Origin: Botryllus schlosseri
Lineage: Eukaryota
DNA length: 64,000 nucleotides
Assembly (NCBI GenBank): GCA_051294905.1
Contig: CM119371.1
Coordinates: 18,912,001 to 18,976,000 of the forward strand
Reading direction: 5' to 3'
The position numbers were made by a program, and so were the translations under genes. Positions 13,301 through 64,000 of this stretch are shown piece by piece. The notes below the pieces were generated by a model, which ran no database searches, was not told the DNA's origin, and saw only the letters and a list, made by a program, of their open reading frames with translations. Each line of letters starts with the position of its first letter. The stretch's first letter is position 1.

Positions 13301-15318
13301 GGTAGGCGGCTTTTGGACTTTTTTCGCACAAACTCGATCAATTTGATTGCACGTACATCTATGAATGTCATCATTTGCTGGCCGCCGCTTCTTTCAGCTA
13401 TGAACTCGCGCTCAATTTGTAGTTGTACGGGGCCGTTTTCTATATATCGCCATCTCGTGCCGTTTTGGCATGACGAGAATTGCAATAAAATAAACTCTGA
13501 CACGGAGAGCTTAAGTTTTGTGTGTGTTTTTCGACCAGTTCGTCCGAAAGTGCCTCAGAGCAATCAGACAATCTGCTTTTCAGGCGTCTCGTTGACAGCG
13601 TGGCGACGGAAATTGTCACATAAAACGGCACAGATCGTAACCGCTGTCGCCTACGACCATACCACGTTGAATACACCCGATCTCGTCCGATCTCGGAAGT
13701 CAAGCAACGTTGGGCCCGGTTAGCACTTGCATGGGTGACCGGCAGGGAATACCGGGTGTAGTATTAGGCTGCTTTTGCATTTTTGTCGTACAAACTCGAT
13801 CAATTCGATTGCTGTGCACTATTCTCATATGAACTATCGCGCAAAATTTGTAATTGTAGTCGGCCTAACGCATTTTCATTATATCGCAAACGCCGTAGAG
13901 AAACGGACAATGTCACATAAAACGGCAGAAACTGTCACAATCTGTCGCCTACGACCATACCACGTTGAATATACCCGATCTCGTCCGATCTCGGAAGTCA
14001 AGCAACGTTGGGCCCGGTTAGTACTTGCATGGGTGACCGGCTGGAAATACCGGGTGTAGTAGGCGGCTTTTTCATTTTTTTCGCACAAACTCGATCAATT
14101 TGATCGCTGCGCTGTATTCACGTATGAAGTATCGCGCGAAATTTGTAATTGTAGTCGGCCTAACACATTTTCATGATATCGCAATCTCGTGCTGTTTTGA
14201 CATGACGAAAATTCCAATAAAATAACTACTCTGACAGCGAGAGCGTACTTGTCTGTTTTTCGACCAGACACAAGAACAGAGCAGGACGCCAATGATATTC
14301 GACCTCTAATTGGTCAGAAAGTGCCTCGGCGCAATAAGACTATCTACTATTCTGGCGTCTCGTCGACAGCATGGCGACGGAAATTGTCACATAAAACGGC
14401 ACAAATCGTAACCACTGTCGCCTACGACCATACCACGTTGAATACACCCGATCTCGTCCGATCTCGGAAGTCAAGCAATGTTGGGCCCGGTTAGTACTTG
14501 CATGGGTGACCGGCTGGGAATACCGGGTGTAGGTAGGCGGCTTTTGCATTTTTTGTGCGCAAACTCGATCGTTTTGATTGCAACTGTTTTGTATGCGCAC
14601 GTAGGCCTACGTACAACTATGATTGTCATCATTTGCTGGCCGCCGCTTATTTCAATTGGTAGTTATACTAGGCCTGACACATTGTCATTATATCGAAATC
14701 TCGTGCTGTTTTCACATGACGAAAAGTGCAATAAAATAACTACTCTGACAGCGAGAGCTTACTTGTGTGTTTGTCGACAAGATACAAGAACAGAGCAGGA
14801 TGCCAACGATATTCGACCACTGGCAGATGGGTCGAAAATGCCCCGGCGCAATCAGACAATGTGCTTTTCTGGCGTCTCGTCGACAGCATGGCGACGGAAA
14901 TTGTCACATAAAACGGCACAGATCGTAACCGCTGTCGCCTACGACCATACCACGTTGAATACACCCGATCTCGTCCGATCTCGGAAGTCAAGCAATGTTG
15001 GGCCCGGTTAGTACTTGCATGGGTGACCGGCTGGGAATACCGGGTGTAGGTAGGCGGCTTTTGCACTTTTGTCGCACAAACTCGATCAATTCGATTGCTG
15101 TGCACTATTCTCATATGAACTATCCCGCGGAATTTGTAATTGTAGTCGGCCTAACGCATTTTAATTATATCGCGATCGCCTTATGCTTAGAGAAACGGAC
15201 AATGTCACATAAAACGGCAGAAACTGTCACAATCTGTCGCCTACGACCATACCACGTTGAATATACCCGATCTCGTCCGATCTCGGAAGTCAAGCAACGT
15301 TGGGCCCGGTTAACGGTT

Positions 15319-17867
15319 AACGTAAATGGATTATCAAACAGACTACAGGATTTGGAACAATATATACAGACATCGAATTTGGATATATTATTGATTCAGG
15401 AAACGCATAAGATCGATAATGTGGATATACGTAACTGGGCAGCGGATATCGGATTTATTATCTACTTCAACACAAAGAACGAAGTGAGACAATATTCTGG
15501 CACTGCGATAATGATTAAAGAACATCACGAAGGTAAAATTTTACGCCACTATAGCATGATCGAAAACCGTGCCCAATGCCTCTGCATCCAAATTGACAAA
15601 TGCCCAATAGCCATAATAAATATTTATGCCCCGTCTGGACAATCCGCAGATCAGATGCCAGAAAGTTACGTGACGATTTCCTAATCAAACTAGAATCAGA
15701 AATCCATGAAATTGAAGTCCCGGTTATAATGGGTGGTGATTTCAACCTAATTATTGACAAAAAAGACACTCGAATTAAACAGAACCTCCATGTCAGAAGC
15801 GCCGAGAGACACTTTGAAAAGCTAACTAACGACGCGGAACTGATTGACGTGTTTAGGAGTAAACATCCTCTTGCCGAAGTATTCACTTACGTCACTGGAA
15901 AAAACGCGAGGAGACTAGATCGTTTCTACGCATCTTGTGAACTCATGAGCCACGTCCAGAATGCAGGACATGAAAATAACCTTGTGGCTGACCACATAAG
16001 TCCGACAATAACACTCGCAATTGAGCCAAGCACTCTATGGGGAAGAAAAAATTGGAAGTGTAATAATGACATTTTGCGTGATGACGTGTACCGAGATATA
16101 ATATCTAATCTCATAAGCTTTGAAGAGAATAATATTCAACACTGCCACGGAATTCAACAATGGTGGGACAGACTAAAAGATAGAATTGCCAACGTAAGCA
16201 AGAGATATGAAATAGACAAATATAAAACCTGTGATCCTCAGATAACGTATCAGAGGGTAAAGGGAAAATTGCGCATGTTAACCAAAATTGACCGTTGCGA
16301 AGGTGAACCTAACACGACGAGACAATTTTGGCAAGAATTGAAGACCAGACGGCGCAAGACCGAGCTTAAAGAACTTCAGCTCAGAGATGGAACGGTAACG
16401 ACCGACCGTAATATTATTGCTAACCAGATTGAACAATTTTACACAGAATTGTGGACCCGACACGACGGCATTAATTCGTACGATCAAGACGAATATCTAT
16501 CATCGTACCAACACGACTGCATGCACGGGAAAGACAATGAACAAACATCGGTAATACAATCTAGCGAAATATTACAAATACTGAAAGCAATGAACAGGGA
16601 AAGGTCACCGGGTTTCGACGGCCTGACAGTGGAATTCTACCTTGCAATGTGGCAAAACATTGGTTCGAGATTAACAGAAATCATAAACAACGCGCTAATA
16701 TACGGAAACATACCGCATAGCTGGAAACGTGCTAAAATTATTTTGATTCACAAAGGAAAGGACAAAAAGGATTTAGCGAACTGGCGACCCATTTCGCTGT
16801 TAAACACGGACTACAAAATAATGGCGAAAATTCTCAACAACAGACTGGTTGAGGAAATTTCGAGCAACATCAACATGACACAGAAAGCGGGAATTCCCGG
16901 AAGACAAATGGACGTGATACACAACAATGTGAGTGCAATTGTTAATTATCATCAAGAAAAACCTTTGGAAGGTTATATAATGACAATAGACGCAAGGAAA
17001 GCCTTTGATAAGGTGAATCACCAAATGCTCTTCAAAGTGCTTGGTAAACTGCCCGTCACGAGAGAAACTCTTAAAGTGATCAAAGCTATATATGATAATC
17101 CTATTGCGACCCTTGAGGTTAACGGCCTCCAAGCAGCCAACGTAAATTGTACGAGGGGCATTAGACAAGGATGTCCTTTGAGTATGACGCTATACGCGAT
17201 TAGCGCAGACCCGCTAGCCCACAAATTATGCACTAACGACGGGAAGCGAGTGGCGCAGTTGGTTAAACACTGCAGTCACGACACCAATGGTTGGTGGTTC
17301 GAGTCTCGGCTCTGCCATGTTTCTATGTGTCGGAGGTTTCTCTGGGCTCCTCATCGCCGACCTCACTGCGGTTGCAGTGCATTGAAAAGCCCAGAACGAA
17401 AGTGAGCCGTGGTAGAAGTCGGCAGCAAAGACCACGACGGGGACGCATGGATGTGAGAGAGTCTGACGTATGAATGAGAGAAAGATCGAAGAAGTCGTCC
17501 CCAAGATTACTGAAGACAAAGACCCATGAACTTTACAAATATTCGTGTCGTGGTGCACAAAGCCTGAAAAAGGCGATAAGCGCCACTGTAAATGTGTCAT
17601 TAATAATAATAATAATAATAATGCACTAACGACAACATCAAGGGTATCCGAATCGGCGGGATAGAGCATACATTAGACCAATTTGCTGATGACGTCACAC
17701 TGTATCTAAGAACAACTGACTCTATTGCCACAGTCATCAACGAATATCAAAGCTTGCACAGAGTGACAGGTCAAGATATCAACACAGACAAGACGGAAAT
17801 CCTACCGCTGAACGAAAAATCGCGTATCAAACTGCAAAAAACTGCGCACGCAGATATGCTAAAGCCA
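15319..17867 (+). pseudogene. Disrupted ORF2 (APE endonuclease + partial RT) of copy 1
   Basis: Motifs NVNGL, QETH, GDFN, RLDRFY, WRPISLLNTDYK and GIRQGCPLS are present. It lacks the start, has a 5-bp CAGAT duplication frameshift (15647-15656), carries the SINE insertion and has lost its 3' part. Confidence 0.93.
17241..17620 (+). mobile_element. tRNA-derived SINE (380 bp) nested in the RT domain of copy 1
   Basis: A box TGGCGCAGTTGG, B box GGTTCGAGTC and a (TAA)n tail. The 13-bp TSD ATGCACTAACGAC lies at 17228-17240 and 17621-17633. The insertion is absent from the intact element (empty site around 61226-61238). Confidence 0.93.
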
Positions 17868-20800: not shown

Positions 20801-21032
20801 CTCGATCAATTCGATTGCTGTGCACTATTCTCATATGAACTATCCCGCGGAATTTGTAATTGTAGTCGGCCTAACGCATTTTAATTATATCGCGATCGCC
20901 TTATGCTTAGAGAAACGGACAATGTCACATAAAACGGCAGAAACTGTCACAATCTGTCGCCTACGACCATACCACGTTGAATATACCCGATCTCGTCCGA
21001 TCTCGGAAGTCAAGCAACGTTGGGCCCGGTTA
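17866..21032 (+). repeat. 5S rDNA array, domain 1b: 8 gene units duplicated from the ~12.4-15.3 kb region
   Basis: Gene starts at 18090, 18607, 18909, 19369, 19667, 20140, 20657 and 20959 (interrupted). Shares diagnostic SNPs at offset 5720, such as GGGAATAGCGGG, TTAGCACTTG and TATCGCGATCG. Confidence 0.93.
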
Positions 21033-21038
21033 ACGGTT

Positions 21039-24000
21039 AACGTAAATGGATTATCAAACAGACTACAGGATTTGGAACAATATATACAGACATCGAATTT
21101 GGATATATTATTGATTCAGGAAACGCATAAGATCGATAATGTGGATATACGTAACTGGGCAGCGGATATCGGATTTATTATCTACTTCAACACAAAGAAC
21201 GAAGTGAGACAATATTCTGGCACTGCGATAATGATTAAAGAACATCACGAAGGTAAAATTTTACGCCACTATAGCATGATCGAAAACCGTGCCCAATGCC
21301 TCTGCATCCAAATTGACAAATGCCCAATAGCCATAATAAATATTTATGCCCCGTCTGGACAATCCGCAGATGCCAGAAAGTTACGTGACGATTTCCTAAT
21401 CAAACTAGAATCAGAAATCCATGAAATTGAAGTCCCGGTTATAATGGGTGGTGATTTCAACCTAATTATTGACAAAAAAGACACTCGAATTAAACAGAAC
21501 CTCCATGTCAGAAGCGCCGAGAGACACTTTGAAAAGCTAACTAACGACGCGGAACTGATTGACGTGTTTAGGAGTAAACATCCTCTTGCCGAAGTATTCA
21601 CTTACGTCACTGGAAAAAACGCGAGGAGACTAGATCGTTTCTACGCATCTTGTGAACTCATGAGCCACGTCCAGAATGCAGGACATGAAAATAACCTTGT
21701 GGCTGACCACATAAGTCCGACAATAACACTCGCAATTGAGCCAAGCACTCTATGGGGAAGAAAAAATTGGAAGTGTAATAATGACATTTTGCGTGATGAC
21801 GTGTACCGAGATATAATATCTAATCTCATAAGCTTTGAAGAGAATAATATTCAACACTGCCACGGAATTCAACAATGGTGGGACAGACTAAAAGATAGAA
21901 TTGCCAACGTAAGCAAGAGATATGAAATAGACAAATATAAAACCTGTGATCCTCAGATAACGTATCAGAGGGTAAAGGGAAAATTGCGCATGTTAACCAA
22001 AATTGACCGTTGCGAAGGTGAACCTAACACGACGAGACAATTTTGGCAAGAATTGAAGACCAGACGGCGCAAGACCGAGCTTAAAGAACTTCAGCTCAGA
22101 GATGGAACGGTAACGACCGACCGTAATATTATTGCTAACCAGATTGAACAATTTTACACAGAATTGTGGACCCGACACGACGGCATTAATTCGTACGATC
22201 AAGACGAATATCTATCATCGTACCAACACGACTGCATGCACGGGAAAGACAATGAACAAACATCGGTAATACAATCTAGCGAAATATTACAAATACTGAA
22301 AGCAATGAACAGGGAAAGGTCACCGGGTTTCGACGGCCTGACAGTGGAATTCTACCTTGCAATGTGGCAAAACATTGGTTCGAGATTAACAGAAATCATA
22401 AACAACGCGCTAATATACGGAAACATACCGCATAGCTGGAAACGTGCTAAAATTATTTTGATTCACAAAGGAAAGGACAAAAAGGATTTAGCGAACTGGC
22501 GACCCATTTCGCTGTTAAACACGGACTACAAAATAATGGCGAAAATTCTCAACAACAGACTGGTTGAGGAAATTTCGAGCAACATCAACATGACACAGAA
22601 AGCGGGAATTCCCGGAAGACAAATGGACGTGATACACAACAATGTGAGTGCAATTGTTAATTATCATCAAGAAAAACCTTTGGAAGGTTATATAATGACA
22701 ATAGACGCAAGGAAAGCCTTTGATAAGGTGAATCACCAAATGCTCTTCAAAGTGCTTGGTAAACTGCCCGTCACGAGAGAAACTCTTAAAGTGATCAAAG
22801 CTATATATGATAATCCTATTGCGACCCTTGAGGTTAACGGCCTCCAAGCAGCCAACGTAAATTGTACGAGGGGCATTAGACAAGGATGTCCTTTGAGTAT
22901 GACGCTATACGCGATTAGCGCAGACCCGCTAGCCCACAAATTATGCACTAACGACGGGAAGCGAGTGGCGCAGTTGGTTAAACACTGCAGTCACGACACC
23001 AATGGTTGGTGGTTCGAGTCTCGGCTCTGCCATGTTTCTATGTGTCGGAGGTTTCTCTGGGCTCCTCATCGCCGACCTCACTGCGGTTGCAGTGCATTGA
23101 AAAGCCCAGAACGAAAGTGAGCCGTGGTAGAAGTCGGCAGCAAAGACCACGACGGGGACGCATGGATGTGAGAGAGTCTGACGTATGAATGAGAGAAAGA
23201 TCGAAGAAGTCGTCCCCAAGATTACTGAAGACAAAGACCCATGAACTTTACAAATATTCGTGTCGTGGTGCACAAAGCCTGAAAAAGGCGATAAGCGCCA
23301 CTGTAAATGTGTCATTAATAATAATAATAATAATAATGCACTAACGACAACATCAAGGGTATCCGAATCGGCGGGATAGAGCATACATTAGACCAATTTG
23401 CTGATGACGTCACACTGTATCTAAGAACAACTGACTCTATTGCCACAGTCATCAACGAATATCAAAGCTTGCACAGAGTGACAGGTCAAGATATCAACAC
23501 AGACAAGACGGAAATCCTACCGCTGAACGAAAAATCGCGTATCAAACTGCAAAAAACTGCGCACGCAGATATGCTAAAGCCAGTAATTAAGATACTGGGC
23601 CTATACCACGGTGAAAGCGAACTGCAAATGAACTTCGACAGACTCTGGCAAGGAGTCGAGAAAAGCGTAAGGCATATTAAATCAAAACGACTTTCTTGGA
23701 TTGGTAAAATAATGGCGATTAAGGCATACATAATTAGCAAAATAACTTATACATATGCCAACAAGCAAATTCCAGGCGACAAGCTCAAGCAACTCGAACG
23801 CCTCGTCTTCGGCCTACTGTGGAGTCCTGAGAAACTCGAGCAAAAAAGCAGAATGCAACTGATCAGACCTAAGCCAGAAGGAGGGATTGATATGCCAGAT
23901 ATCGAATCTGCAACACAAGCAAAGAGAGCAAAAAGACTACAACAACTTAGTCGACTCGAGAACCCGATTGATATCTGGCATGCAGAAGCGATATACAATC

Positions 24001-24680
24001 TCACAACGAAGGTGAGCGACATAAATTGCAATTTATACAACAACCTCTACCCTCACAGAAATACATTGACGGAGGAATGGAAGAAGGAAAAGGAAATATT
24101 CGACGTAATTAAAAGCCGATCACAGGATATACAAGAACTAAGCCAGAAAGAAATGTACAAAATCCTTGTTAAAACGAAGACGCAACAAGGAGGAAGCCGC
24201 ATGGCGGACTGGAAAGAGATATGGCTATACCAGCCCAATATCAAAGATCACATTGACAACAAGAAACGTGAGATTTCGTATCGAATTAACACTGAGAGCT
24301 ACTTTACAGGCTCCAGAAAAACCAACGAAGGCTGGGTAAGAAGAAAAGACGCCTACTTGAAAAACAAATGCAAATTCTGCCAACACGCCGAAGATACTCT
24401 GCGTCACACCTTCGCCGAATGCGCAACTTACAAAAAACTGTTCTCTCTTGTAATACAGGATCTCGAGAACGACCTGCAAACGACTATTGACGCTACACCC
24501 GACGAGATCATACGCAACGTCTACGACGGACCGCAAGCTCCGACTATAATAAAAGCTTTTATGAACGTGAAAACCCTTGTGTGGGAATGGAAAAACGCAC
24601 TCGACATACAAAATGAATACGCCCAAAATATTGACCAACGCATCCAAGATATAAGAAGTAAAATATACCGAATAATTTAA
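21039..24680 (+). pseudogene. ORF2 (APE-RT-Zn finger) of copy 2, lacking the first 10 codons and interrupted by a SINE
   Basis: Collinear with the 1092-aa ORF at 59894-63172. The SINE introduces stops 16 codons before the FADD motif. The C-terminal CKFC-X8-H-X4-C is present. Confidence 0.95.
22956..23335 (+). mobile_element. tRNA-derived SINE (380 bp) nested in the RT domain of copy 2
   Basis: A box at 22966-22977, B box at 23011-23020 and a (TAA)7 tail at 23316-23336. The TSD ATGCACTAACGAC lies at 22943-22955 and 23336-23348. Confidence 0.94.
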
Positions 24681-25172
24681 GCGAGCCATTTAAACGCTCA
24701 CGCGATAAATCATGTTGCATTTATCGACCCGCAAAACGCAACCAATCCACCTACAACCTATCCAAACCACCAAACCTCCCATCCCACTCTACCCCACCCC
24801 TAAACCAACACCTACTCCCCCAATCTACCATATCCACCACCACCCATGCCCTATTCCTACCCCACCCACCCCTACCCTATTCCTACCCCACCCACCACCA
24901 CTCCGCCGAATTTATATGAAAATCAGACGCAAACGAGCGCCAAGTACTGGCGGCTCCTTCTACGACCGCGACCACGAATCGACATCGACTGCTACGATGA
25001 GATGAGATGAGACGAGCGACTACGAGCGCCAACTTACGACGGCGTCTACTACGACCGCGTATACAAATCCTACTTCGGCAACGGCTGAGACGAGATGACC
25101 CGATGATGGGGAAAGATTTTCTTTATGAAATTTTTGAAATTTTATGTACATATTTGAATAAACATCACAAAA
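24681..25172 (+). other. 3' UTR of retrotransposon copy 2 with C-rich tract, AATAAA (25157-25162) and A4 tail
   Basis: Lies between the ORF2 stop and the 3' junction and is homologous to 59405-59893 on the minus strand. Confidence 0.88.
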
Positions 25173-28100
25173 CGGTTAGTACTTGCATGGGTGACCGGCT
25201 GGGAATACCGTGTGTAGTAGACGGCTTTTGCATTTTTGTCGCACAAACTCGATCAATTAGATTGCTACTGTTTTGTATGCGCACGTAGGCCTACGTACAA
25301 CTATAAATGTCACCATTTGCTGGCCGCCGCTTATTTCAATTTGTAGTTATACTAGGCCTAACACATTGTCATTATATCGAAATCTCGTGCTGTTTTCACA
25401 TGACGAAAAGTGCAATAAAATAACTACTCTGACAGCGAGAGCTTACTTGTGTGTTTGTCGACCAGATACAAGAACAGGGCAGGACGCCAATGATATTCGA
25501 CCGCTAGCAGACTTTTCTTTCGAGTTATTGGGCCGAAAGTGCCTCGGCGCAATCAGACAATCTGCTTTTCAGGCGTCTCATCGTTGGTAGCGTGGCGACT
25601 TTTCGCCTGAGATGAACGAAAAATGTCACGTAAAACGGCACAGATTGTATCCACTGTCGCCTACGACCATACCACGTTGAATACACCCGATCTCGTCTGA
25701 TCTCGGAAGTTAAGCGGCGTTGGGCTCAGTTAGTACTTGCATGGGTGACCGGCTGGGAATACCGGGTGCGTGTAGGCTTTTGCATTTTTTTCCGCACAAA
25801 CTCGATCAATTCGATTGCTGTGCTTTATTTTCAAATGAATTATCGCGCGAAATTTGGAATTGTAATCCGCCTAACACATTTTCATTATATCAAACTCTCG
25901 TACTGTTTTGACATGACAGAAAGTGCAATAAAATAACTACTCTGACAGCGAGAGCTTACTTGTGTGTTTGTCGACAAGATACAAGAACAGAGCAGGATGC
26001 CAACGATATTCGACCGCTGGCAGACGGGTTGAAAATGCCCCAGCGCAATCAGACAATCTGCTTTTCTGGCGTCTCGTCGACAGCATGGCGACGGAAATTG
26101 TCACATAAAACGTCAGAATTGGTAACCACACTTGCCTACGACCATACCACGTTGAATATACCCGATCTCGTCCGATCTCGGAAGTCAAGCAACGTTGGGC
26201 CCGGTTAGTACTTGCATGGGTGACCGGCTGGGAATACCATGTGTAGTAGACGGCTTTTGCATTTTTGTCGCACAAACTCGATCAATTAGATTGCAACTGT
26301 TTTGTATGCGCACGTAGGCCTACGTACAACTATAAATGTCACCATTTGCTGGCCGCCGCTTATTTCAATTTGTAATTATACTAGGCCTAACACATTGTCA
26401 TTATATCGAAATCTCGTGCTGTTTTCACATGACGAAAAGTGCAATAAAATAACTACTCTGACAGCGAGAGCTTACTTGTGTGTTTGTCGACAAGATACAA
26501 GAACAGAGCAGGATGCCAACGATATTCGACCGCTGGCAGACAGGTTGAAAATGCCCCAGCGCAATCAGACAATCTGCTTTTCAGGCGTCTCATCGTTGGC
26601 AGCGTGGCGACTTTTCGCCTGAGATGAACGAAAAATGTCACGTAAAACGGCACAGATTGTATCCACTGTCGCCTACGACCATACCACGTTGAATACACCC
26701 GATCTCGTCTGATCTCGGAAGTCAAGCAACGTTGGTTCCGGTTAGTACTTGCATGGGTGACCGGCTGGGAATACCGTGTGTAGTAGACGGCTTTTGCATT
26801 TTTGTCGCACAAACTCGATCAATTAGATTGCAACTGTTTTGTATGCGCACGTAGGCCTACGTACAACTATAAATGTCACCATTTGCTGGCCGCCGCTTAT
26901 TTCAATTTGTAGTTATACTAGGCCTAACACATTGTCATTATATCGAAATCTCGTGCTGTTTTCACATGACGAAAAGTGCAATAAAATAACTACTCTGACA
27001 GCGAGAGCTTACTTGTGTGTTTGTCGACCAGATACAAGAACAGGGCAGGACGCCAATGATATTCGACCGCTAGCAGACTTTTCTTTCCAGTTATTGGGCC
27101 GAAAGTGCCTCGGCGCAATCAGACAATCTGCTTTTCAGGCGTCTCATCGTTGGTAGCGTGGCGACTTTTCGCCTGAGATGAACGAAAAATGTCACGTAAA
27201 ACGGCACAGATTGTATCCACTGTCGCCTACGACCATACCACGTTGAATACACCCGATCTCGTCTGATCTCGGAAGTTAAGCGGCGTTGGGCTCAGTTAGT
27301 ACTTGCATGGGTGACCGGCTGGGAATACCGGGTGCGTGTAGGCTTTTGCATTTTTTTTCCGCACAAACTCGATCAATTCGATTGCTGTGCTTTATTTTCA
27401 AATGAATTATCGCGCGAAATTTGGAATTGTAATCCGCCTAACACATTTTCATTATATCAAACTCTCGTACTGTTTTGACATGACAGAAAGTGCAATAAAA
27501 TAACTACTCTGACAGCGAGAGCTTACTTGTGTGTTTGTCGACAAGATACAAGAACAGAGCAGGATGCCAACGATATTCGACCGCTGGCAGACGGGTTGAA
27601 AATGCCCCAGCGCAATCAGACAATCTGCTTTTCTGGCGTCTCGTCGACAGCATGGCGACGGAAATTGTCACATAAAACGTCACAATTGGTAACCACACTT
27701 GCCTACGACCATACCACGTTGAATATACCCGATCTCGTCCGATCTCGGAAGTCAAGCAACGTTGGGCCCGGTTAGTACTTGCATGGGTGACCGGCTGGGA
27801 ATACCATGTGTAGTAGACGGCTTTTGCATTTTTGTCGCACAAACTCGATCAATTAGATTGCAACTGTTTTGTATGCGCACGTAGGCCTACGTACAACTAT
27901 AAATGTCACCATTTGCTGGCCGCCGCTTATTTCAATTTGTAGTTATACTAGGCCTAACACATTGTCATTATATCGAAATCTCGTGCTGTTTTCACATGAC
28001 GAAAAGTGCAATAAAATAACTACTCTGACAGCGAGAGCTTACTTGTGTGTTTGTCGACAAGATACAAGAACAGAGCAGGATGCCAACGATATTCGACCGC

Positions 28101-34100: not shown

Positions 34101-34544
34101 GCGTGTAGGCTTTTGCATTTTTTTCTCCGCACAAACTCGATCAATTCGATTGCTGTGCTTTATTTTCAAAGGAATTATCGCGCGAAATTTGGAATTGTAA
34201 TCCGCCTAACACATTTTCATTATATCAAACTCTCGTACTGTTTTGACATTACAGAAAGTGCAATAAAATAACTACTCTGACAGCGAGAGCTTACTTGTGT
34301 GTTTGTCGACAAGATACAAGAACAGAGCAGGATGCCAACGATATTCGACCGCTGGCAGACGGGTAGAAAATGCCCCAGCGCAATCAGACAATCTGCTTTT
34401 CTGGCGTCTCGTCGACAGCATGGCGACGGAAATTGTCACATAAAACGTCAGAATTGGTAACCACACTTGCCTACGACCATACCACGTTGAATATACCCGA
34501 TCTCGTCCGATCTCAGAAGTCAAGCAACGTTGGGCCCGGTTAGT
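25173..34544 (+). repeat. 5S rDNA array, domain 2: ~1,567-bp 3-mer higher-order repeat of variant genes (one 3' half plus 18 gene starts)
   Basis: Starts at 25659, 26134, 26671, 27225, 27701, 28238, 28792, 29269, 29806, 30360, 30837, 31374, 31911, 32465, 32944, 33477, 33992 and 34469. Units are ~476, 537 and 554 bp. Confidence 0.94.
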
Positions 34545-34620
34545 ACTAACCGGGCCCAACGTTGCTTAACTTCCGAGATCGGACGAGATCGGGTGTATTC
34601 AACGTGGTATGGTCGTAGGC
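34469..34620. repeat. Palindromic orientation switch: two convergent 5S 5' halves (nt 1-76 each) fused at AGT|ACT
   Basis: ...GGGCCCGGTTAGT|ACTAACCGGGCCC... centred at 34544/34545. The palindrome is perfect over 34522-34567 and has three mismatches over the 76-nt arms. Confidence 0.93.
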
Positions 34621-58600: not shown

Positions 58601-59404
58601 TCGCCACGCTGTCAACGAGACGCCTGAAAAGCAGATTGTCTGATTGCTCGGAGGCACTTTCGGACGAACTGGTCGAAAAACACACATATAAATTAAGCTC
58701 TCCGTGTAAGAGTTTATTTTATTGCAATTCTCGTCATGTCAAAACGGCACGAGATTGCGATAAACGGCCCTGCACAACTACAAATTGAGCGCGAGTTCAT
58801 AGCTGAAAGAAGCGGCGGCCGGCAAATGATGACATTCATAGTTGTACGTGCAATCAAATTGATCGAGTTTGTGTGAAAAACTGCAAAAGGCGGCCTACTA
58901 CACCCGGTATTCCCAGCCGGTCACCCATGCAAGTACTAACCGGGCCCAACGTTGCTTGACTTCCGAGATCAGACGAGATCGGGTGTATTCAACGTGGTAT
59001 GGTCGTAGGCGACAGTGGATACAATCTGTGCCGTTTTATGTGACATTCTATAGGGCGAAAAGTCGCCACGCTGTCAACGAGACGCCTGAAAAGCAGATTG
59101 TCTGATTGCTCGGAGGCACTTTCGGACGAACTGGTCGAAAAACACACATATAAATTAAGCTCTCCGTGTAAGAGTTTATTTTATTGCAATTCTCGTCATG
59201 TCAAAACGGCACGAGATTGCGATAAACGGCCCTGCACAACTACAAATTGAGCGCGAGTTCATAGCTGAAAGAAGCGGCGGCCGGCAAATGATGACATTCA
59301 TAGTTGTACGTGCAATCAAATTGATCGAGTTTGTGTGAAAAAATGCAAAAGGCGGCCTACTACACCCGGTATTCCCAGCCGGTCACCCATGCAAGTACTA
59401 ACCG
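34545..59404 (-). repeat. 5S rDNA array, domain 3: about 53 full genes plus two halves in homogeneous 462/466-bp units
   Basis: Reverse-complement 5S genes recur every 462 or 466 bp. The length difference is a 4-bp indel (GCCATGCACG vs GCCACG). One 294-bp foreign unit lies near 52.1-52.4 kb. Confidence 0.96.
34961..35082 (-). rRNA. 5S rRNA gene (representative of the minus-strand array)
   Basis: The reverse complement reads GCCTACGACC...GTCTGATCTCGG...CCGGGTGTAGTAGGCCGCC-TTTT, with intact helices and internal promoter. Confidence 0.96.
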
Positions 59405-59893
59405 TTTTTGTGATGTTTATTCAAGTATGTACATAAAATTTCAAAAATTTCATAAAGAAAATCTTTCCCCATCATCGGGTCATCTCGTCTCAGCCGTTGC
59501 CGAAGTATGGTATGTATACGCGGTCGTAGTAGACGTCGTCGTAAGTTGGCGCTCGTAGTCGCTCGGCTCATCTCATGTCATCGTAGCAGTCGATTCGTGG
59601 TCTTAGAAGGAGCCGCCAGTGCTTGGCGCTCGTTTGCGTGTGATTTTCATATAAATTTGGTGGAGTGGTGGCGGGTGGGGTAGGAATAGGGTAGGGGTGG
59701 GGTGGGTAGGAATAGGGCATGGGGGGTGGGAGATCGGGTAGATTGGGGGGGGGGACGTGTAGGTGTTGGTTTAGGGAAGGGGCAGAGTGGGATGGGAGGT
59801 TTGGTGGTTTGGATAGGTTGTAGGTGGATTGGTTGCGTTTTGTGGGTCGATAAATGCAATATGATTTATCGCGCGAGCGTTTAAATGGCTCGC

Positions 59894-62800
59894 TTAAATT
59901 ATTCGGTATATTTTACTTCTTATATCGGAGATGCGTTGGTCAATATTTTGGGCATATTCATTTTGTATGTCAAGGGCGTTTTTCCATTCCCACACAAGGG
60001 TTTTCACGTTCATAAAAGCTTTTATTATAGTCGGAGCTTGCGGTCCGTCGTAGACGTTGCGTATGATCTCGTCGGGTGTAGCGTCAATAGTCGTTTGCAG
60101 GTCGTTCTCGAGATCCTGTATTACAAGAGAGAACAGTTTTTTGTAAGTTGCACATTCGGCGAAGGTGTGGCGCAGAGTATCTTCGGCGTGTTGGCAGAAT
60201 TTGCATTTGTTTTTCAAGTAGGCGTCTTTTCTTCGTACCCAGCCTGCGTTGGTTTTTCTGGAGCCTGTAAAGTAGCTCTCAGTGTTAATGCGATACGAAA
60301 TCTCACGTTTCTTGTTGTCAATGTGATCTTTGATATTGGGCTGGTATAGCCATATCTCCTTCCAGTCCGCCATGCGGCTTCTTCCTTGTTGCGTCTTTGT
60401 TTTAACAAGGATCTGGTACATTTCTTTCTGGCTTAGTTCTTGTATATCCTGTGATTGTCTTTTAATTACGTCGAATATTTCCTTTTCCTTCTTCCATTCC
60501 TCCGTCAGTGTATTTCTGTGAGGGTAGAGGTTGTTGTATAAATTGCAATTTATATCTCTCACCTTCGTTGTCAGATTGTATATAGCTGCTGCATGCCAGA
60601 TATCAATCGGGTTCTCGAGTCGACTAAGTTGTTGTAGTCTTTTTGCTCTCTTTGCTTGTGTTGCAGATTCGATATCTGGCATATCAATCCCTCCTTCTGG
60701 CTTAGGTCTGATCAGTTGCATTCTGCTTTTCTGCTCGAGTTTCTCAGGACTCCACAGTAGGCCGAAGACGAGGCGTTCGAGTTGCTTGAGCTTGTCGTCT
60801 GGAATTTGCTTGTTGGCATATGTATAAGTTATTTTGCTAATTATGTATGCCTTAATCGCCGTTATTTTACCAATCCAAGAAAGCCGTTTTGATTTAATAT
60901 GCCTTACGCTTTTCTCGACTCCTTGCCAGAGTCTGTCGAAGTTCATTTGCAGCTCGCTTCCTCCGTGGTATAAGCCCAGTATCTTAATTACTGGCTTTAG
61001 CATATGTGCGTGCGCAGTTTTTTGCAGACTGATACGCGATTTTTCGTTCAGCGGTAGGATTTCCGTCTTGTCTGTGTTGATATCTTGACCTGTCACTCTA
61101 TGCAAGCTTTGATATTCGTTAAGGACTGTGGTAATAGAGTCAGTTGTTCTTAGATACAGTGTGACGTCATCAGCAAATTGGTCTAATTTATGCTCTATCC
61201 CGCCGATTTGGATACCTTTGATGTTGTCGTTAGTGCATAGCTTGTGGGCTAGAGGGTCTGCGCTAATCGCGTATAGTGTCATACTCAAAGGACATCCTTG
61301 TCTAATACCCCTCGTACAATTTACATTGGCTGTTTGGAGGCCGTTAACCTCGATGGTCGCAATAGGATTATCATATATGGCTTTGATCACTTTAAGAGTT
61401 TCTTCCGTGACGGGCAGTTTATCAAGCACTTTCAGGAGCATTTGGTGGTCCACCTTATCAAAGGCTTTCCTTGCGTCTATAGTCATTATATAACCTTCTA
61501 AAGGTTTTTCTTGATGATAATTAACAATTGCACTCACATTGTTGTGTATCACGTCCATTTGTCTTCCAGGAATTCCCGCTTTCTGTGTCATGTTGATGTT
61601 GCTCGAAATTTCCTCAACCAGTCTGTTGTTGAGAATTTTCGCCATTATTTTGTAGTCCGTGTTTAACAGCGAAATGGGTCGCCAGTTCGCTAAATCCTTT
61701 TTGTCCTTTCCTTTGTGAATCAAAATAATTTTAGCACGTTTCCAGCTATGCGGTATGTTTCCGTATATTAGCGCGTTGTTTATGATTTCTGTTAATCTCG
61801 AACCAATGCTTTGCCACATTGCAAGGTAGAATTCCACTGTCAGGCCGTCGAAACCCGGTGACCTTTCCCTGTTCATTGCTTTCAGTATTTGTAATATTTC
61901 GCTAGATTGTATTACCGATGTTCGTTCATTGTCTTTCCCGTGCATGCAGTCGTTCTGGTACGATGATAGATATTCGGCTTGATCGTACGAATTAATGCCG
62001 TCGTGTCGGGTCCACAATTCTGTGTAGAATTGTTCAATCTGGTTAGCAATAATATTACGGTCAGTCGTTACCGTTCCATCTCTGAGCTGAAGTTCTTTAA
62101 GCTCAGTCTTACGCCGTCTGGTCTTCAATTCTTGCCAAAATTGTCTCGTCGTGTTAGGTTCACCTTCGCAACGGTCAATTTTGGTTAACATGCGCAATTT
62201 TCCCTTTACCCTCTGATACGTTATCTGAGGATCACAAGTTTTATATTTGTCTATCTCATATCTCTTGCTTACGTTGGCAATTCTATCTTTTAGTCTGTCC
62301 CACCATTGTTGAATGCCATGGCAGTGTTGGATATTATTCTCTTCAAAGCTGATGAGATTAGATATTATATCTCGGTACACGTCATCTCGCAAAAGGTCAT
62401 TATTACACTTCCAATTTTTTCTTCCCCACAGAGTGCTTGGCTCAATTGCGAGTGTTATTGTCGGACTTATGTGGTCAGCCACAAGGTTATTTTCATGCCC
62501 TGCATTCTGGACATGGCTCATGAGTTCACAAGATGCGTAGAAACGATCTAGTCTCCTCGCGGTTTTTCCAGTGACGTAAGTGAATACTTCGGCAAGAGGA
62601 TGTTTACTCCTAAACACGTCAATCAGTTCCGCGTCATTAGTTAGCTTTTCAAAGTGTCTCTCGGCGCTTCTGACATGGAGGCTCTGTTTAATTCGAGTGT
62701 CTTTTTTGTCAATAATTAGGTTGAAATCACCACCCATTATAACCGGGACTTCAATTTCATGGATTTCTGATTCTAGTTTGATTAGGAAATCGTCACGTAA

Positions 62801-63172
62801 CTTTCTCGCATCTGCGGATTGTCCAGACGGGGCATAAATATTTATTATAGCTATTGGGCATTTGTCAATTTGAATGCAGAGGCATTGGGCACGGTTTTCA
62901 ATCATGCTATAGTGGCGCAAAATTTTACCTTCGTGATGTTCTTTAATCATTATCGCAGTGCCAGAGTATTGTCTCACTTCGTTCTTTGTGTTGAAGTAGA
63001 TAATAAATCCGATTTCCGCTGCCCAGTTACGTATATCCACATTATCGATCTTATGCGTTTCCTGAATCAATAGTATATCCAAATTCGATGTCTGTATATA
63101 TTGTTCCAAATCCTGTAGTCTGTTTGATAATCCATTTACGTTAATCGATGCTATTTTCAATAGGTTCGCCAT
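59894..63172 (-). CDS. ORF2 polyprotein, 1092 aa: APE-type endonuclease, reverse transcriptase, C-terminal CCHC zinc finger
   Basis: EN motifs SINVNGL, LIQETH, NIYAP, MGGDFN, RLDRFY and ADH. RT motifs SPGFDG, WRPISLLNTDYK, IDARKAFDKV, GIRQGCPLS and QFADD. C-terminal C-X2-C-X8-H-X4-C. This is the architecture of L1/Tx1-clade ORF2. Confidence 0.97.
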   Translation of the reverse strand: MANLLKIASINVNGLSNRLQDLEQYIQTSNLDILLIQETHKIDNVDIRNWAAEIGFIIYFNTKNEVRQYSGTAIMIKEHHEGKILRHYSMIENRAQCLCIQIDKCPIAIINIYAPSGQSADARKLRDDFLIKLESEIHEIEVPVIMGGDFNLIIDKKDTRIKQSLHVRSAERHFEKLTNDAELIDVFRSKHPLAEVFTYVTGKTARRLDRFYASCELMSHVQNAGHENNLVADHISPTITLAIEPSTLWGRKNWKCNNDLLRDDVYRDIISNLISFEENNIQHCHGIQQWWDRLKDRIANVSKRYEIDKYKTCDPQITYQRVKGKLRMLTKIDRCEGEPNTTRQFWQELKTRRRKTELKELQLRDGTVTTDRNIIANQIEQFYTELWTRHDGINSYDQAEYLSSYQNDCMHGKDNERTSVIQSSEILQILKAMNRERSPGFDGLTVEFYLAMWQSIGSRLTEIINNALIYGNIPHSWKRAKIILIHKGKDKKDLANWRPISLLNTDYKIMAKILNNRLVEEISSNINMTQKAGIPGRQMDVIHNNVSAIVNYHQEKPLEGYIMTIDARKAFDKVDHQMLLKVLDKLPVTEETLKVIKAIYDNPIATIEVNGLQTANVNCTRGIRQGCPLSMTLYAISADPLAHKLCTNDNIKGIQIGGIEHKLDQFADDVTLYLRTTDSITTVLNEYQSLHRVTGQDINTDKTEILPLNEKSRISLQKTAHAHMLKPVIKILGLYHGGSELQMNFDRLWQGVEKSVRHIKSKRLSWIGKITAIKAYIISKITYTYANKQIPDDKLKQLERLVFGLLWSPEKLEQKSRMQLIRPKPEGGIDMPDIESATQAKRAKRLQQLSRLENPIDIWHAAAIYNLTTKVRDINCNLYNNLYPHRNTLTEEWKKEKEIFDVIKRQSQDIQELSQKEMYQILVKTKTQQGRSRMADWKEIWLYQPNIKDHIDNKKREISYRINTESYFTGSRKTNAGWVRRKDAYLKNKCKFCQHAEDTLRHTFAECATYKKLFSLVIQDLENDLQTTIDATPDEIIRNVYDGPQAPTIIKAFMNVKTLVWEWKNALDIQNEYAQNIDQRISDIRSKIYRII

Positions 63173-63998
63173 TGATTCTGTTTTGGGGGTCCTGCTGGAT
63201 TATGGCTGTCTTTCTTTTAGTGTTGTCTTTTTTAATGCAATTTATATTCGGTTTTATTATCCTCACTTGGTTGCTTGTGTTGTTCCTGGTCGTTACTCTG
63301 TTTCCGTTTTGTTGTTTCGACGCTTTATCACAGCTGGCGCTCGATTTTGGTCCTTTGTTGGCATTAGACGACTTTTTACTGAGTAGCTTTTGGGCCGTCT
63401 GTGTTTCATTTGATTTGCCTGATTCGCGTTTTTTCTCGCTGACCTGAGGCTGTACGGAGTGTTCCTCTGTTGTGTCTTCATTCTCGTATGCAGCGTCCGG
63501 TGATGTGTAAGATTTCGTCATCACTGGGCTATTCGGCGCTGTTTGATTTTTGTTCGTGTCCTCATTCTGACTCATATTCAGGTCAGCTGGTTTCTCTGTT
63601 GTTATTCTCGTCGATCCGTTCGTTTCGTCGGTTATTCTCTCACCAGCATTGGGTTCGCTTGAGTTTTTTCTTACAGGTTTATCTACGATTTGATCATTGA
63701 CTCCCTCAGCCTTTTCGATTCCAGCCTCGTGTTCGTTTTGTCTTTTGCCACGTTTTGCTTTACAAGTTTCTGCGCCATGGCCTATCCTGCCGCACTTGGT
63801 GCATTCCAATTTTTCGGCTGGGCAATCTCTGATCATGTGACCCGTTCCGTTGCAGTTGTAGCAACGCTTTTGATATGCATCTGCAGCAGTCTTGATCCAA
63901 CATCTCACACCATCAATTATCATACTATCTGGCATATCTTCTTCACTGAAATCTTCCATCCAGATGTTAGTGAAGCCATTGTACCAGTTAGTATTCTT
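63141..63998 (-). CDS. ORF1 nucleic-acid-binding (gag-like) protein, C-terminal part; open to the window edge
   Basis: Two C-X2-C-X4-H-X4-C knuckles (CYNCNGTGHMIRDC, CTKCGRIGHGAETC) precede a low-complexity charged tail. The frame stays open upstream of the track's Met (KNTNWYNGFTNIW-M). It overlaps the ORF2 start by 32 nt. Confidence 0.92.
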   Translation of the reverse strand, partial: KNTNWYNGFTNIWMEDFSEEDMPDSMIIDGVRCWIKTAADAYQKRCYNCNGTGHMIRDCPAEKLECTKCGRIGHGAETCKAKRGKRQNEHEAGIEKAEGVNDQIVDKPVRKNSSEPNAGERITDETNGSTRITTEKPADLNMSQNEDTNKNQTAPNSPVMTKSYTSPDAAYENEDTTEEHSVQPQVSEKKRESGKSNETQTAQKLLSKKSSNANKGPKSSASCDKASKQQNGNRVTTRNNTSNQVRIIKPNINCIKKDNTKRKTAIIQQDPQNRINGEPIENSID

Positions 63999-64000
63999 GT

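What the first reader, a model, noticed from the sequence alone, without database searches (positions are those of the whole stretch)
59355..64000. Sequence-specific non-LTR retrotransposon that targets the internal promoter of 5S rRNA genes
Seen: both visible 3' junctions are identical to the base, ...AATAAACATCAC(A)4-5|CGGTTAGTACTTGC (25172/25173 on +, 59405/59404 on -). This is between 5S nt 68 and 69, co-oriented with the gene, in two different spacer families. The two elements differ at many positions and in 5' extent, which argues for separate insertions. This copy has an intact 1092-aa APE-RT-ZnF ORF2 and a two-knuckle ORF1. Known: Tx1-group elements of the L1 clade include families specific for multicopy RNA genes (Mutsu for 5S rDNA in fish, Keno for U2 snRNA). 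Inference: this is a possibly active 5S-specific family whose APE endonuclease cuts near GGGCC/CGGTTA. It may be a new lineage or an independent origin of 5S targeting, and is a candidate site-specific gene-insertion tool.
Basis: partly seen in the sequence, partly recalled or inferred. Interest (0 to 1): 0.9.

Follow-up and report, generated by a model that had tools for sequence, protein, structure and literature searches.

The report
Recently active 5S-gene-targeting LINE family
A jumping gene of the LINE type, still intact and apparently recently mobile, has landed again and again at exactly the same nucleotide inside 5S ribosomal RNA genes of this genome; the kind of element is known, but this family and its landing site appear to be new.

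Summary
The window lies in 5S rDNA arrays. A 5.28-kb LINE with an APE endonuclease and a reverse transcriptase sits in a 5S gene, co-oriented, with its 3' end at ...CATCACAAAAA|CGGTTAGTAC. Genome-wide I found 13 such 5S junctions on four contigs. Eleven have different 5' junctions, so at least ten are independent insertions. Three copies on three contigs differ at 5-6 of about 5,200 bases and keep both ORFs intact.

Three corrections follow. First, the terminal C belongs to the element, so the cut is GGGCCC|GGTTAG (nt 69/70, ambiguous with 68/69). Second, the family is not purely 5S-specific: 32 of 45 junctions lie elsewhere, at sites fitting GGCCN|GGT(T), several in tRNA T-arms. Only the young subfamily with an A-type tail is strict (11 in 5S, 4 in tRNA-like sites, 1 other). 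Third, the window's third copy is a segmental duplicate.

ORF2 belongs to the L1/Tx1 superclade. In my tree it falls outside both the Tx1-named clade and the L1 anchor group. Mutsu inserts about 20 nt from the 5S 5' end, so this is a different site. I class it as a new member of a known kind. Repbase and Dfam could not be checked, and no RNA evidence was obtained.

The parts
59354..59403 (-). 3' remnant of the disrupted 5S gene (about nt 70-119), directly downstream of the element
   Evidence: Sequence. It matches the neighbouring intact 5S units found by Rfam.
59404..59893 (-). 3' UTR of the element. It ends ...GAATAAACATCACAAAAAC and has no poly(A) tail. The last base (C, 59404) is element-derived but identical to 5S C69.
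   Evidence: At 10 of 11 readable non-5S sites the target base at -1 is not C, yet the junction always reads AAAAC|GG.
59894..63172 (-). ORF2, 1092 aa, intact. APE endonuclease at aa 8-214, reverse transcriptase at aa 491-706 with FADD, and a C-terminal C-X2-C-X7-H-X4-C motif.
   Evidence: The alignment to human L1 EN shows the N/E/D-N/D/D-H catalytic motifs in place.
63141..64000 (-). C-terminal 285 aa of ORF1 with two CCHC knuckles. ORF1 overlaps ORF2 by 32 nt. The rest of ORF1, a 5' UTR of roughly 130-240 nt depending on the copy, and the 5' half of the 5S gene lie beyond the window end (about window-equivalent 64001-64681).
   Evidence: In this copy 5S nt 1-35 abut the element, a target deletion of about 33 bp.
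20959..21032 (+). 5' part of a second disrupted 5S gene (nt 1-74)
21033..25173 (+). Older, 5'-truncated and decayed copy of the same family. Its tail is CATCACAAAAC and its TSD is CGGTTA. It is followed by 5S nt 70-119 at 25174-25222.
   Evidence: It is 91% identical to the - copy over the 3' UTR (L005).
22956..23335 (+). tRNA-derived SINE with a (TAA)n tail, inserted into the + copy and flanked by a 13-bp duplication ATGCACTAACGAC
   Evidence: Read directly.
15313..17867 (+). Segmental duplicate of the + copy, with the same 5' junction and the same SINE. Its 3' part is lost where it joins spacer sequence. It is not an independent insertion.
   Evidence: It lies 5,720 bp from the + copy.

Best explanation
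This is an autonomous non-LTR retrotransposon of 5,279 bp. ORF1 is 458 aa with two CCHC knuckles. ORF2 is 1092 aa with an APE endonuclease, a reverse transcriptase and a CCHC motif. It belongs to the L1/Tx1 superclade and inserts by target-primed reverse transcription at a defined DNA sequence.

Its machinery nicks the bottom strand opposite GGCCN|GGTT. In this genome the best and most numerous match is 5S rDNA nt 65-74 (GGGCCC|GGTTAGTAC). Reverse transcription starts at a fixed RNA end (...AAUAAACAUCACAAAAAC), not on a poly(A) tail. Top-strand cleavage is imprecise, which gives TSDs of 6-10 bp, blunt joins, or target deletions of up to about 33 bp, together with variable 5' truncation.

The insertion separates the front 69 nt of the 5S gene from the rest and so inactivates that unit. 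About 1% of roughly 1,100 target-bearing units are occupied. The youngest subfamily is near-identical on three contigs with intact ORFs, so the family has probably been active very recently.

What is shown: junction anatomy, independence of the insertions, the target motif, ORF integrity and the catalytic motifs. What is inferred: which strand is nicked first and where, that the endonuclease (rather than another domain or RNA annealing) reads the motif, an internal Pol II promoter, and present-day activity.
For: 1. Same-nucleotide insertions. A search with the 495-nt 3' UTR gave 42 matches, 30 of which were fetched as loci. Of these, 11 of 30 are followed by 5S from nt 69. A junction-pattern search gave 96 hits, of which 45 belong to family A, with 12 in 5S. 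The window's + copy has an A4 tail and was missed by the pattern, so the total is 13. They lie on contigs C1, C9, C11 and C17.

2. Independence. Eleven 5S copies have eleven different 5' structures. Examples are full length with TSD CGGTTAGTAC, full length with a blunt join, a 33-bp target deletion, and truncations at reference positions 774, 839, 2679, 4705 and 4841.

3. Youth. The C1, C9 and C11 copies differ at 5 of 5,243 and 6 of 5,193 aligned columns. All three have ORF1 of 458 aa and ORF2 of 1092 aa. Three more 5S copies have an open ORF2 at 97% identity.

4. Target motif. I inspected about 20 non-5S copies with a visible 5' boundary, and 11 gave a readable TSD. All 11 begin with GG. C is at -2 in 10 of 11 (binomial p 8e-6 against a background of 0.25). 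G is at -5 in 9 of 11, and T is at +3 in 72-85% of non-5S flanks. All 30 BLAST-ascertained copies read AAAAC-GG, and that query did not include those bases.

5. A tRNA-Glu(TTC) gene is split at GGCGGCCCG|GGTTCGATTCC. The intact paralogue 1.3 kb away shows the uninterrupted site.

6. Enrichment. The 18-mer 5S target occurs 1,099 times (reversed-pattern control 0). GGCCNGGTT occurs 7,671 times (control 4,445). 5S therefore holds about 14% of minimal motif sites but 11 of 16 A-tail junctions.

7. Enzyme. The best solved relative is human L1 ORF2p at 254 bits. L1 EN aligns at E 1e-9 with the catalytic motifs conserved, and the RT carries FADD.

Against: Most family-A junctions (32 of 45) are not in 5S, so specificity is a property of one subfamily or is leaky.

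Survivorship may inflate the contrast, because old insertions in arrays are lost by array turnover while off-target fossils persist.

The first 300 aa of ORF2 show no position at which both T-tail, non-5S copies examined differ from all A-tail copies (only 2 T-tail copies). The endonuclease alone therefore does not explain why A-tail copies are stricter.

No RNA or polymorphism evidence for current activity was obtained. No nicking assay exists. Censuses are lower bounds: 40 of 139 and 42 of 2,607 candidates were scored, and the pattern itself contained CGG.
Confidence: 0.85

Rival explanations
1. Fidelity for 5S comes mainly from the RNA, not the endonuclease. Master copies sitting in 5S genes give read-through transcripts ending in ...AAAAAC-GGUUAGUAC.... 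These anneal to the nicked 5S bottom strand, as proposed for R1, R2 and the telomeric LINEs. The enzyme itself would recognise only about GGCCN|GG. Lineages whose masters lie outside 5S (T-tail) would then scatter.
For: No fixed EN-domain difference separates the A-tail (5S) from the T-tail (dispersed) copies. GG is absolute, and T at +3 and T at +4 decay in frequency from 0.72-0.85 to 0.53-0.64, as expected for microhomology priming. The tail is a fixed sequence, not poly(A). A-tail against T-tail target usage differs strongly (11/5 vs 1/28, Fisher p 4.5e-6), although terminal branch lengths are similar in both groups. Co-transcription with the target is said to strengthen specificity in a passage of PMC4494074.
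Against: The upstream GGCC preference (-5 to -2) cannot come from annealing to the downstream primer, so protein-DNA recognition is also needed. No transcript ends were observed. T-tail copies do not share the flank of any identifiable master.
Confidence: 0.25
2. Targeting works by tethering to the RNA polymerase III machinery (TFIIIA, TFIIIC), as for Ty3 or the Dictyostelium TRE elements. This would explain why both 5S and tRNA genes are hit.
For: The A-tail subfamily hits only 5S (11) and tRNA T-arm-like sites (4), apart from one junction. The sites fall in internal control regions: the 5S intermediate-element region and the tRNA B box (coordinates recalled).
Against: Insertion is at one exact nucleotide inside the gene, not at a distance from it. 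The 5S and tRNA-Glu sites share the primary sequence GGCCC(C/G)GGTT. The same motif is seen at non-gene off-target sites and in tRNA-derived SINEs.
Confidence: 0.07
3. The apparent specificity is an artefact of array amplification or of assembly. One or two old insertions would have been copied along with 5S units.
For: One window copy (15313-17867) is indeed such a duplicate.
Against: There are eleven different 5' junctions on four contigs, in arrays with different unit lengths and spacers. Identities range from 84% to 100%.
Confidence: 0.02
4. It is an already catalogued family, for example a Repbase or Dfam L1 or Tx1 entry for this species, possibly annotated with its 5S target. In that case nothing here is new.
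For: Repbase holds many target-annotated Tx1 and L1 families from invertebrates (passages of PMC4494074). I could not query Repbase or Dfam.
Against: Five full-text searches found only Mutsu and Dada-5S as transposons aimed at 5S genes. [quoted passage not shown] The closest database protein is 53% identical and unnamed.
Confidence: 0.25

Closest known systems
Mutsu (MutsuDr1-3 and later subfamilies; Repbase L1-2_DR, L1-5_DR, L1-3_DR), the 5S-specific LINE of zebrafish
   Same: An APE-type, two-ORF LINE of about 5.5 kb that inserts sequence-specifically and co-oriented inside 5S rRNA genes. Many copies are intact, and subfamilies have their own target variants (PMC5340908: abstract and passages).
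   Different: Mutsu's site is about 20 nt from the 5S 5' end, whereas this element inserts at nt 69/70. Mutsu was identified with a 3' poly(A) stretch as a criterion, whereas this tail is a fixed A5C. The one zebrafish 'pol-like' protein retrieved (BAC82609.1) is 25% identical to this ORF2; whether that protein is Mutsu itself is unknown. No Mutsu sequence could be compared directly.
Tx1 clade of target-specific LINEs (Tx1L, Keno in U2, Kibi and Koshi in microsatellites, Tx1-Mar)
   Same: An APE plus RT ORF2 close to L1. Families have short, defined target sequences, often in multicopy RNA genes (PMC4494074 passages).
   Different: In a 44-row ORF2 tree the element lies in a separate 13-row clade (SH-aLRT 100). 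It is outside the clade holding the three rows whose own or whose relatives' source names point to Tx1 (100), and on the other side of a 99-supported split. ORF2 is about 1,090-1,150 aa, against about 1,300 aa.
L1 proper (human L1 ORF2p, fish L1)
   Same: It is the best solved-structure match (254 bits). The EN catalytic motifs and the RT palm motifs align.
   Different: There is no poly(A) tail, and ORF1 has CCHC knuckles with no Transposase_22 match. The target is a GC-rich motif of about 9 bp rather than TTTT/AA. It does not group with the L1 anchor P0080, which scores 628 bits to human L1.
R1 and R2 of 28S rDNA
   Same: They share the strategy of living in a multicopy rRNA gene. They also share a precise 3' junction with a ragged 5' junction, and possibly use downstream target sequence in the transcript.
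   Different: R2 uses a restriction-like endonuclease. R1 is an APE element of another clade, and the R1Bm and TRAS1 EN structures did not match at E 0.001. The target gene is different.
Dada-5S DNA transposons of fish
   Same: They insert specifically in 5S rRNA genes. Related families switch between tRNA and 5S targets that share primary sequence (PMC8869645 abstract and passages).
   Different: They are DNA transposons with a DDE transposase, an unrelated mechanism.

Membership tests
Target-specific APE-type non-LTR retrotransposon (TPRT) | ORF2 with an APE-like endonuclease with catalytic residues and a reverse transcriptase with the Y/FxDD box | tested here: met
   Pfam Exo_endo_phos and RVT_1. 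Alignment to L1 EN keeps the N, E, D-N, D and D-H motifs. FADD is present.
Target-specific APE-type non-LTR retrotransposon (TPRT) | Independent insertions at the same nucleotide and orientation, with a precise 3' junction and variable 5' junctions or TSDs | tested here: met
   13 5S junctions at one nucleotide; 11 distinct 5' structures on 4 contigs.
Target-specific APE-type non-LTR retrotransposon (TPRT) | The great majority of family copies lie in the target | tested here: inconclusive
   Family A: 12 of 45 junctions in 5S. A-tail subfamily: 11 of 16 in 5S plus 4 in tRNA-like sites. Survivorship bias is not excluded.
Target-specific APE-type non-LTR retrotransposon (TPRT) | The endonuclease nicks the target sequence specifically in vitro | not testable with these tools
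   Needs protein biochemistry.
Tx1 clade | ORF2 or RT groups with Tx1 reference sequences in a phylogeny | tested here: not met
   Quick IQ-TREE of 44 rows. The three rows labelled Tx1 are P0094 (pol-like, Danio), P0194 (pol-like, Tetraodon) and P0213 (YTX2 protein, Polyodon). Their 8-row clade (100) excludes the element, which sits in a 13-row unnamed clade (100). Caveats: the labels come from source names of these proteins or of their relatives, there is no Repbase reference and no outgroup, and support is SH-aLRT only.
Tx1 clade | Repbase or Dfam classification | not testable with these tools
   Neither library is available here.
Mutsu | Insertion about 20 nt downstream of the 5S 5' end | tested here: not met
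   The site here is nt 69/70. Mutsu's site is taken from PMC5340908 passages.
Mutsu | Sequence similarity to the MutsuDr consensus sequences | not tested
   No sequence identified as Mutsu was available. Kojima and Fujiwara 2004 is not held.
L1 clade sensu stricto | Groups with bona fide L1; poly(A) tail; ORF1 of the Transposase_22 type | tested here: not met
   It does not group with the L1 anchor P0080. The tail is a fixed A5C. ORF1 matches only zf-CCHC.
Pol III-tethered integrators (Ty3, TRE/DRE type) | Insertion at a set distance outside Pol III genes, independent of local sequence | tested here: not met
   Insertions are inside the genes at a shared sequence motif, and the motif is also used at non-gene sites.

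The most novel reading that the evidence does not exclude
An L1-like lineage outside the Tx1-named clade has independently evolved 5S-gene targeting at a new site. It is caught in transition within one genome. Cousin families at 52-57% ORF2 identity insert without visible preference. T-tail and B relatives insert at GGCCN|GG(T) sites, often in tRNA T-arms. The youngest A-tail subfamily is almost exclusive to 5S. No fixed change was found in the first 300 aa of ORF2, which contain the endonuclease domain. The extra fidelity may therefore be inherited through the master copy's location, by read-through RNA annealing to the target, rather than through the protein.
Probability: 0.2. Interest if true: 0.7.

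Novelty: new member of a known kind. Interest (0 to 1): 0.55.

Why it matters
Site-specific LINEs that live in multicopy RNA genes are natural models for how an APE endonuclease acquires sequence specificity. With R2 as the lead example, they are also being developed for insertion of transgenes into rDNA 'safe harbours' (titles and abstracts of PMC11371274 and PMC13586686 seen in the listing).

This family offers a second, independent solution for the 5S gene, at a stretch (GGTTAGTAC) that I recall as conserved across eukaryotic 5S genes. It comes with a graded series of relatives in one genome, running from promiscuous through motif-preferring to 5S-strict, so protein and RNA determinants of specificity could be mapped by swaps. 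It also shows that tRNA T-arms and 5S share a usable target motif, which parallels what was reported for Dada DNA transposons.

For genome biology, about 1% of 5S units are knocked out. A minority 5S variant (GGGCTCAG instead of GGGCCCGG) lacks the GG that every insertion site has, which recalls the maternal/somatic 5S and Mutsu story in zebrafish.

Tried and rejected
1. RNA and polymorphism evidence. The look-up of sequencing runs listed no holder on record as RNA. Expression, transcript ends and insertion polymorphism are therefore untested.

3. Large flanks. Fetching 6-kb flanks for all 96 pattern hits succeeded only for the first 20. Their 5' junctions and TSDs are unknown.

4. Earlier notes of this scan. 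Nothing was found for this genome or sequence, and three word hits were unrelated.

5. Naming the zebrafish protein BAC82609.1. No paper holds the accession, and Kojima and Fujiwara 2004 is not held.

6. ESM Atlas. It returned only generic RVT/EEP clusters with no taxa.

7. Genomic context of the closest foreign relatives (P0001 at 53% and P0002 at 39% identity). This could not be fetched, so whether they sit in 5S genes is unknown.

8. Considered and rejected. The hits reading CAATAAACATCACAAAAACCGATATGG (13 of 96) are an unrelated repeat with an internal look-alike, not junctions. An EN-domain substitution explaining the A-tail strictness was not found.

Full report
WHAT IS THERE

The window is almost wholly 5S rDNA. 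Rfam finds 120 5S matches: a mixed, higher-order array on the + strand (1-34,100) and a regular 462-466-bp array on the - strand (34,500-59,010).

At 59,404-64,000 (- strand) lies the 3' 4.6 kb of a LINE. Its 490-nt 3' UTR ends in GAATAAACATCACAAAAAC. ORF2 is intact at 1092 aa (59894-63172), and the last 285 aa of ORF1 are in view. Directly downstream, 5S resumes at GGTTAGTACTTGC.

Reading on in the assembly shows the rest of the element. ORF1 is 458 aa with two CCHC knuckles, and the 5' UTR is short. The front of the same 5S gene follows, but only nt 1-35, so about 33 bp of target were lost.

A second copy lies on the + strand at 21033-25173. It is truncated near the start of ORF2, is 91% identical in the 3' UTR, is broken by stops, and carries a SINE. 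It has the same 3' junction, and a 6-bp duplication CGGTTA flanks it. A third copy at 15313-17867 has the same 5' junction and the same SINE and lies one 5,720-bp higher-order unit away. It is a segmental duplicate, not a separate event.

IS IT SITE-SPECIFIC?

The window's assembly (495 Mb, 219 contigs) could be searched. The 3' UTR gave 42 matches, from 40 scored of 139 candidates. Thirty were fetched, and 11 of them are followed by 5S from the same nucleotide. A junction pattern gave 96 hits against 3 for the reversed control. After reading every flank, the hits sort as follows:
- 45 belong to this family (A): 12 in 5S, 6 in tRNA T-arm-like sequence, 27 elsewhere.
- 36 belong to a close sister (B, tail AAAAATCAC...): 9 in tRNA T-arm-like sequence.
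- 13 are an unrelated repeat.
- 2 are unclear.

With the window's + copy, whose shorter A-run escaped the pattern, there are 13 5S junctions on contigs C1, C9, C11 and C17, all at one nucleotide and co-oriented.

Eleven of the 13 have eleven different 5' structures:
- full length with TSD CGGTTAGTAC;
- full length with a blunt join;
- a 33-bp deletion;
- 22 nt of filler between 5S and the element;
- truncations at reference positions 774, 839, 2679, 4705 and 4841, and other rearranged forms.

A precise 3' junction with a ragged 5' junction is the signature of target-primed reverse transcription. It shows at least ten independent hits. Array duplication explains only the one copy noted above.

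IS IT ALIVE?

The copies on C1, C9 and C11 sit in arrays with different units and spacers. They differ at only 5 of 5,243 and 6 of 5,193 aligned positions, and all three have both ORFs open. Three more 5S copies have an open ORF2 at 97% identity.

The EN domain aligns with human L1 EN with the catalytic N, E, D-N, D and D-H motifs in place, and the RT has FADD.

I obtained no RNA or polymorphism evidence.

WHERE EXACTLY, AND WHAT IS RECOGNISED?

I inspected about 20 non-5S copies whose 5' boundary was visible, and 11 gave a readable target-site duplication. In all 11 the duplicated target begins with GG. The base before it in the undisturbed target is C in only 1 of 11, yet every junction reads AAAAC|GG.

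A split tRNA-Glu(TTC) gene makes this explicit. The intact paralogue 1.3 kb away reads GGCGGCCCGGGTTCGATTCC. The split gene reads ...GGCGGCCCGGGTT[element]...AAAAAC GGTTCGATTCC.

The element therefore ends in C, and the cut in 5S is GGGCCC|GGTTAG (nt 69/70).

Upstream of the cut, the 11 non-5S sites show C at -2 (10 of 11, p 8e-6), G at -5 (9 of 11), G at -4 (6) and C at -3 (5). Downstream, non-5S flanks show T at +3 in 72-85% and T at +4 in 53-64%, then nothing. The working motif is GGCCN|GGTT, and 5S matches it perfectly.

Four T-tail copies sit at one position of a tRNA-derived SINE, GGCCG|GGTCATACC, which resembles the 5S site.

GGCCNGGTT occurs 7,671 times in the genome (reversed control 4,445). 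The 18-mer 5S target occurs 1,099 times (control 0). 5S is thus about 14% of minimal sites but takes 11 of 16 A-tail insertions, so recognition reaches beyond the nine bases or something else adds fidelity. About 1% of 5S units are occupied.

SUBFAMILIES

A tree of the 3' UTRs (30 copies) has a supported clade (98/93) of 12 copies with the tail CACAAAAAC. Ten are in 5S and two in tRNA-like sites. One row, L019, was mislabelled 'other' by my script; one search shows it is in 5S. The other 18 copies have the tail CACTAAAAC: one is in 5S, two in SINEs and 15 elsewhere. Fisher p is 2e-5. On the larger census the split is 11/5 against 1/28, p 4.5e-6.

Terminal branches of several dispersed T-tail copies (0.004-0.013) are as short as those of A-tail 5S copies, so age and survivorship alone do not obviously explain the contrast, though they may contribute.

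In the first 300 aa of ORF2 there is no position where both T-tail copies available differ from all A-tail copies. This leaves open a determinant elsewhere in the proteins. It also leaves open the RNA: read-through transcripts from masters sitting in 5S would carry GGUUAGUAC... and could anneal to the nicked target. Similar effects are cited for R1, R2 and telomeric LINEs in a passage of PMC4494074. I rate that as a real but secondary possibility, because the upstream GGCC preference needs protein-DNA contact.

More distant cousins in the same genome (ORF2 52-57% identical, open frames) end in related tails such as ...AAATAAAATCACTGAAAA. Their flanks are unrelated in 3, 2 and 2 copies, so there is no visible target preference in this small sample.

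WHAT IS IT RELATED TO?

The best solved relative is human L1 ORF2p (254 bits). R2 proteins score 50-77 bits. The R1Bm and TRAS1 endonucleases did not match at E 0.001.

In the 5.8-billion-protein set the nearest protein is 53% identical and unnamed, then 39%, then about 30%. A zebrafish 'pol-like protein' (BAC82609.1) is 25% identical to ORF2. Its own relatives carry source names such as 'transposon TX1 uncharacterized 149 kDa protein' and 'YTX2'. That protein scores 280 bits to human L1, so the three are about equidistant.

One hit, P0080 from Oryzias, is a true L1 (628 bits over its full length). A 44-row ORF2 tree (quick search, SH-aLRT only, unrooted) puts the element in a 13-row clade of unnamed ~1,100-1,150-aa proteins (100). 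This clade is separated by a 99-supported split from the side that holds both the Tx1-named clade (100) and the L1 anchor.

So the element belongs to the L1/Tx1 superclade. Membership of Tx1 is not shown and on this evidence is not met. Repbase references would be needed to settle it.

COMPARISON WITH WHAT IS KNOWN

Mutsu of zebrafish is the known 5S-specific LINE. Its sites are about 20 nt from the 5' end, in the half of the gene that differs between maternal and somatic 5S (PMC5340908, abstract and passages). Dada-5S are DNA transposons of fish 5S genes (PMC8869645, abstract and passages). Five full-text searches found no other transposon aimed at the 5S gene itself. A 2024 review says that, to its authors' knowledge, no TE insertion within the 5S gene has been reported, although its table lists Mutsu (PMC10946416, passages).

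The present family has a different site, a fixed non-poly(A) tail, a smaller ORF2 and a different lineage. I call it a new member of a known kind, with the caveat that Repbase and Dfam could not be consulted.

The site falls between box A and box C, in the intermediate-element region, by the Xenopus coordinates that I recall. This was not tested for this organism. I see no evidence that promoter function, as opposed to sequence, is what is recognised.

VERDICT

The result is of interest mainly as a tractable natural series for studying how LINE target specificity is set, and as a second, independent 5S-gene integrator.

Noticed in passing
window 34469-34620: The + and - strand 5S arrays meet head to head inside a 5S gene. 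Rfam reports overlapping partial 5S matches on both strands (34469-34567 + and 34522-34620 -), which suggests an inversion breakpoint or palindromic junction within the gene.
   Followed up: no
window 25659-25778, 27225-27344, 33992-34111 and others: A minority 5S variant (6 of 114 units scanned) reads GGGCTCAGTTAG instead of GGGCCCGGTTAG. It therefore lacks the GG found at every insertion site, and also differs upstream (TTAAGCGGCG). Four more units read GGTTCCGGTTAG. Such variants might be poor targets, which recalls the maternal/somatic 5S story for Mutsu.
   Followed up: partly
window 22956-23335 (and its duplicate at 17236-17615): A tRNA-derived SINE with a (TAA)n tail and a 13-bp target duplication is inserted in the old LINE copy. 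The same or a related SINE family (…GGTTCGATCCCCGGCCGGGTCATACCAAAGACTCGAAAATTGG…) is itself hit at least four times at one position by T-tail copies of the LINE.
   Followed up: partly
G000 C1:5915901, C1:6252705, C3:32980314, C3:33305809, C17:1434347 (L054, L055, L063, L088, L077); also C5:20957741, C7:22697174, C8:14776377: Sister family B (tail GAATAAAAATCACAAAAAC) is followed five times by the same sequence GGTTACAACCC(T/C)GGTTTTTGGTCCGCTTATGACTGG, and three times by GGTTACAACTTACAACAC. This is either repeated hits on two other repeat families at fixed sites or composite repeats. It was not resolved, because only 121-nt stretches are held.
   Followed up: no
G000 C1:5174396-5177647, C4:11102275-11105526, C11:6122152-6125403 and others: The genome holds many related LINE families: 2,607 first-look ORF2 candidates, with several groups at 45-57% identity and open ~1,100-aa frames. 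Three give equal scores, which suggests other recently active, apparently non-site-specific cousins.
   Followed up: partly
window 1-34000: The + strand array is built of higher-order repeats. Units recur at 8,076-bp spacing (for example 145 and 8221) and at 5,720-bp spacing (15239 and 20959). Several 5S variants and truncated units of 90-116 nt are present. The recurring 157- and 177-aa ORFs listed across the array are probably artefacts of the repeat.
   Followed up: no
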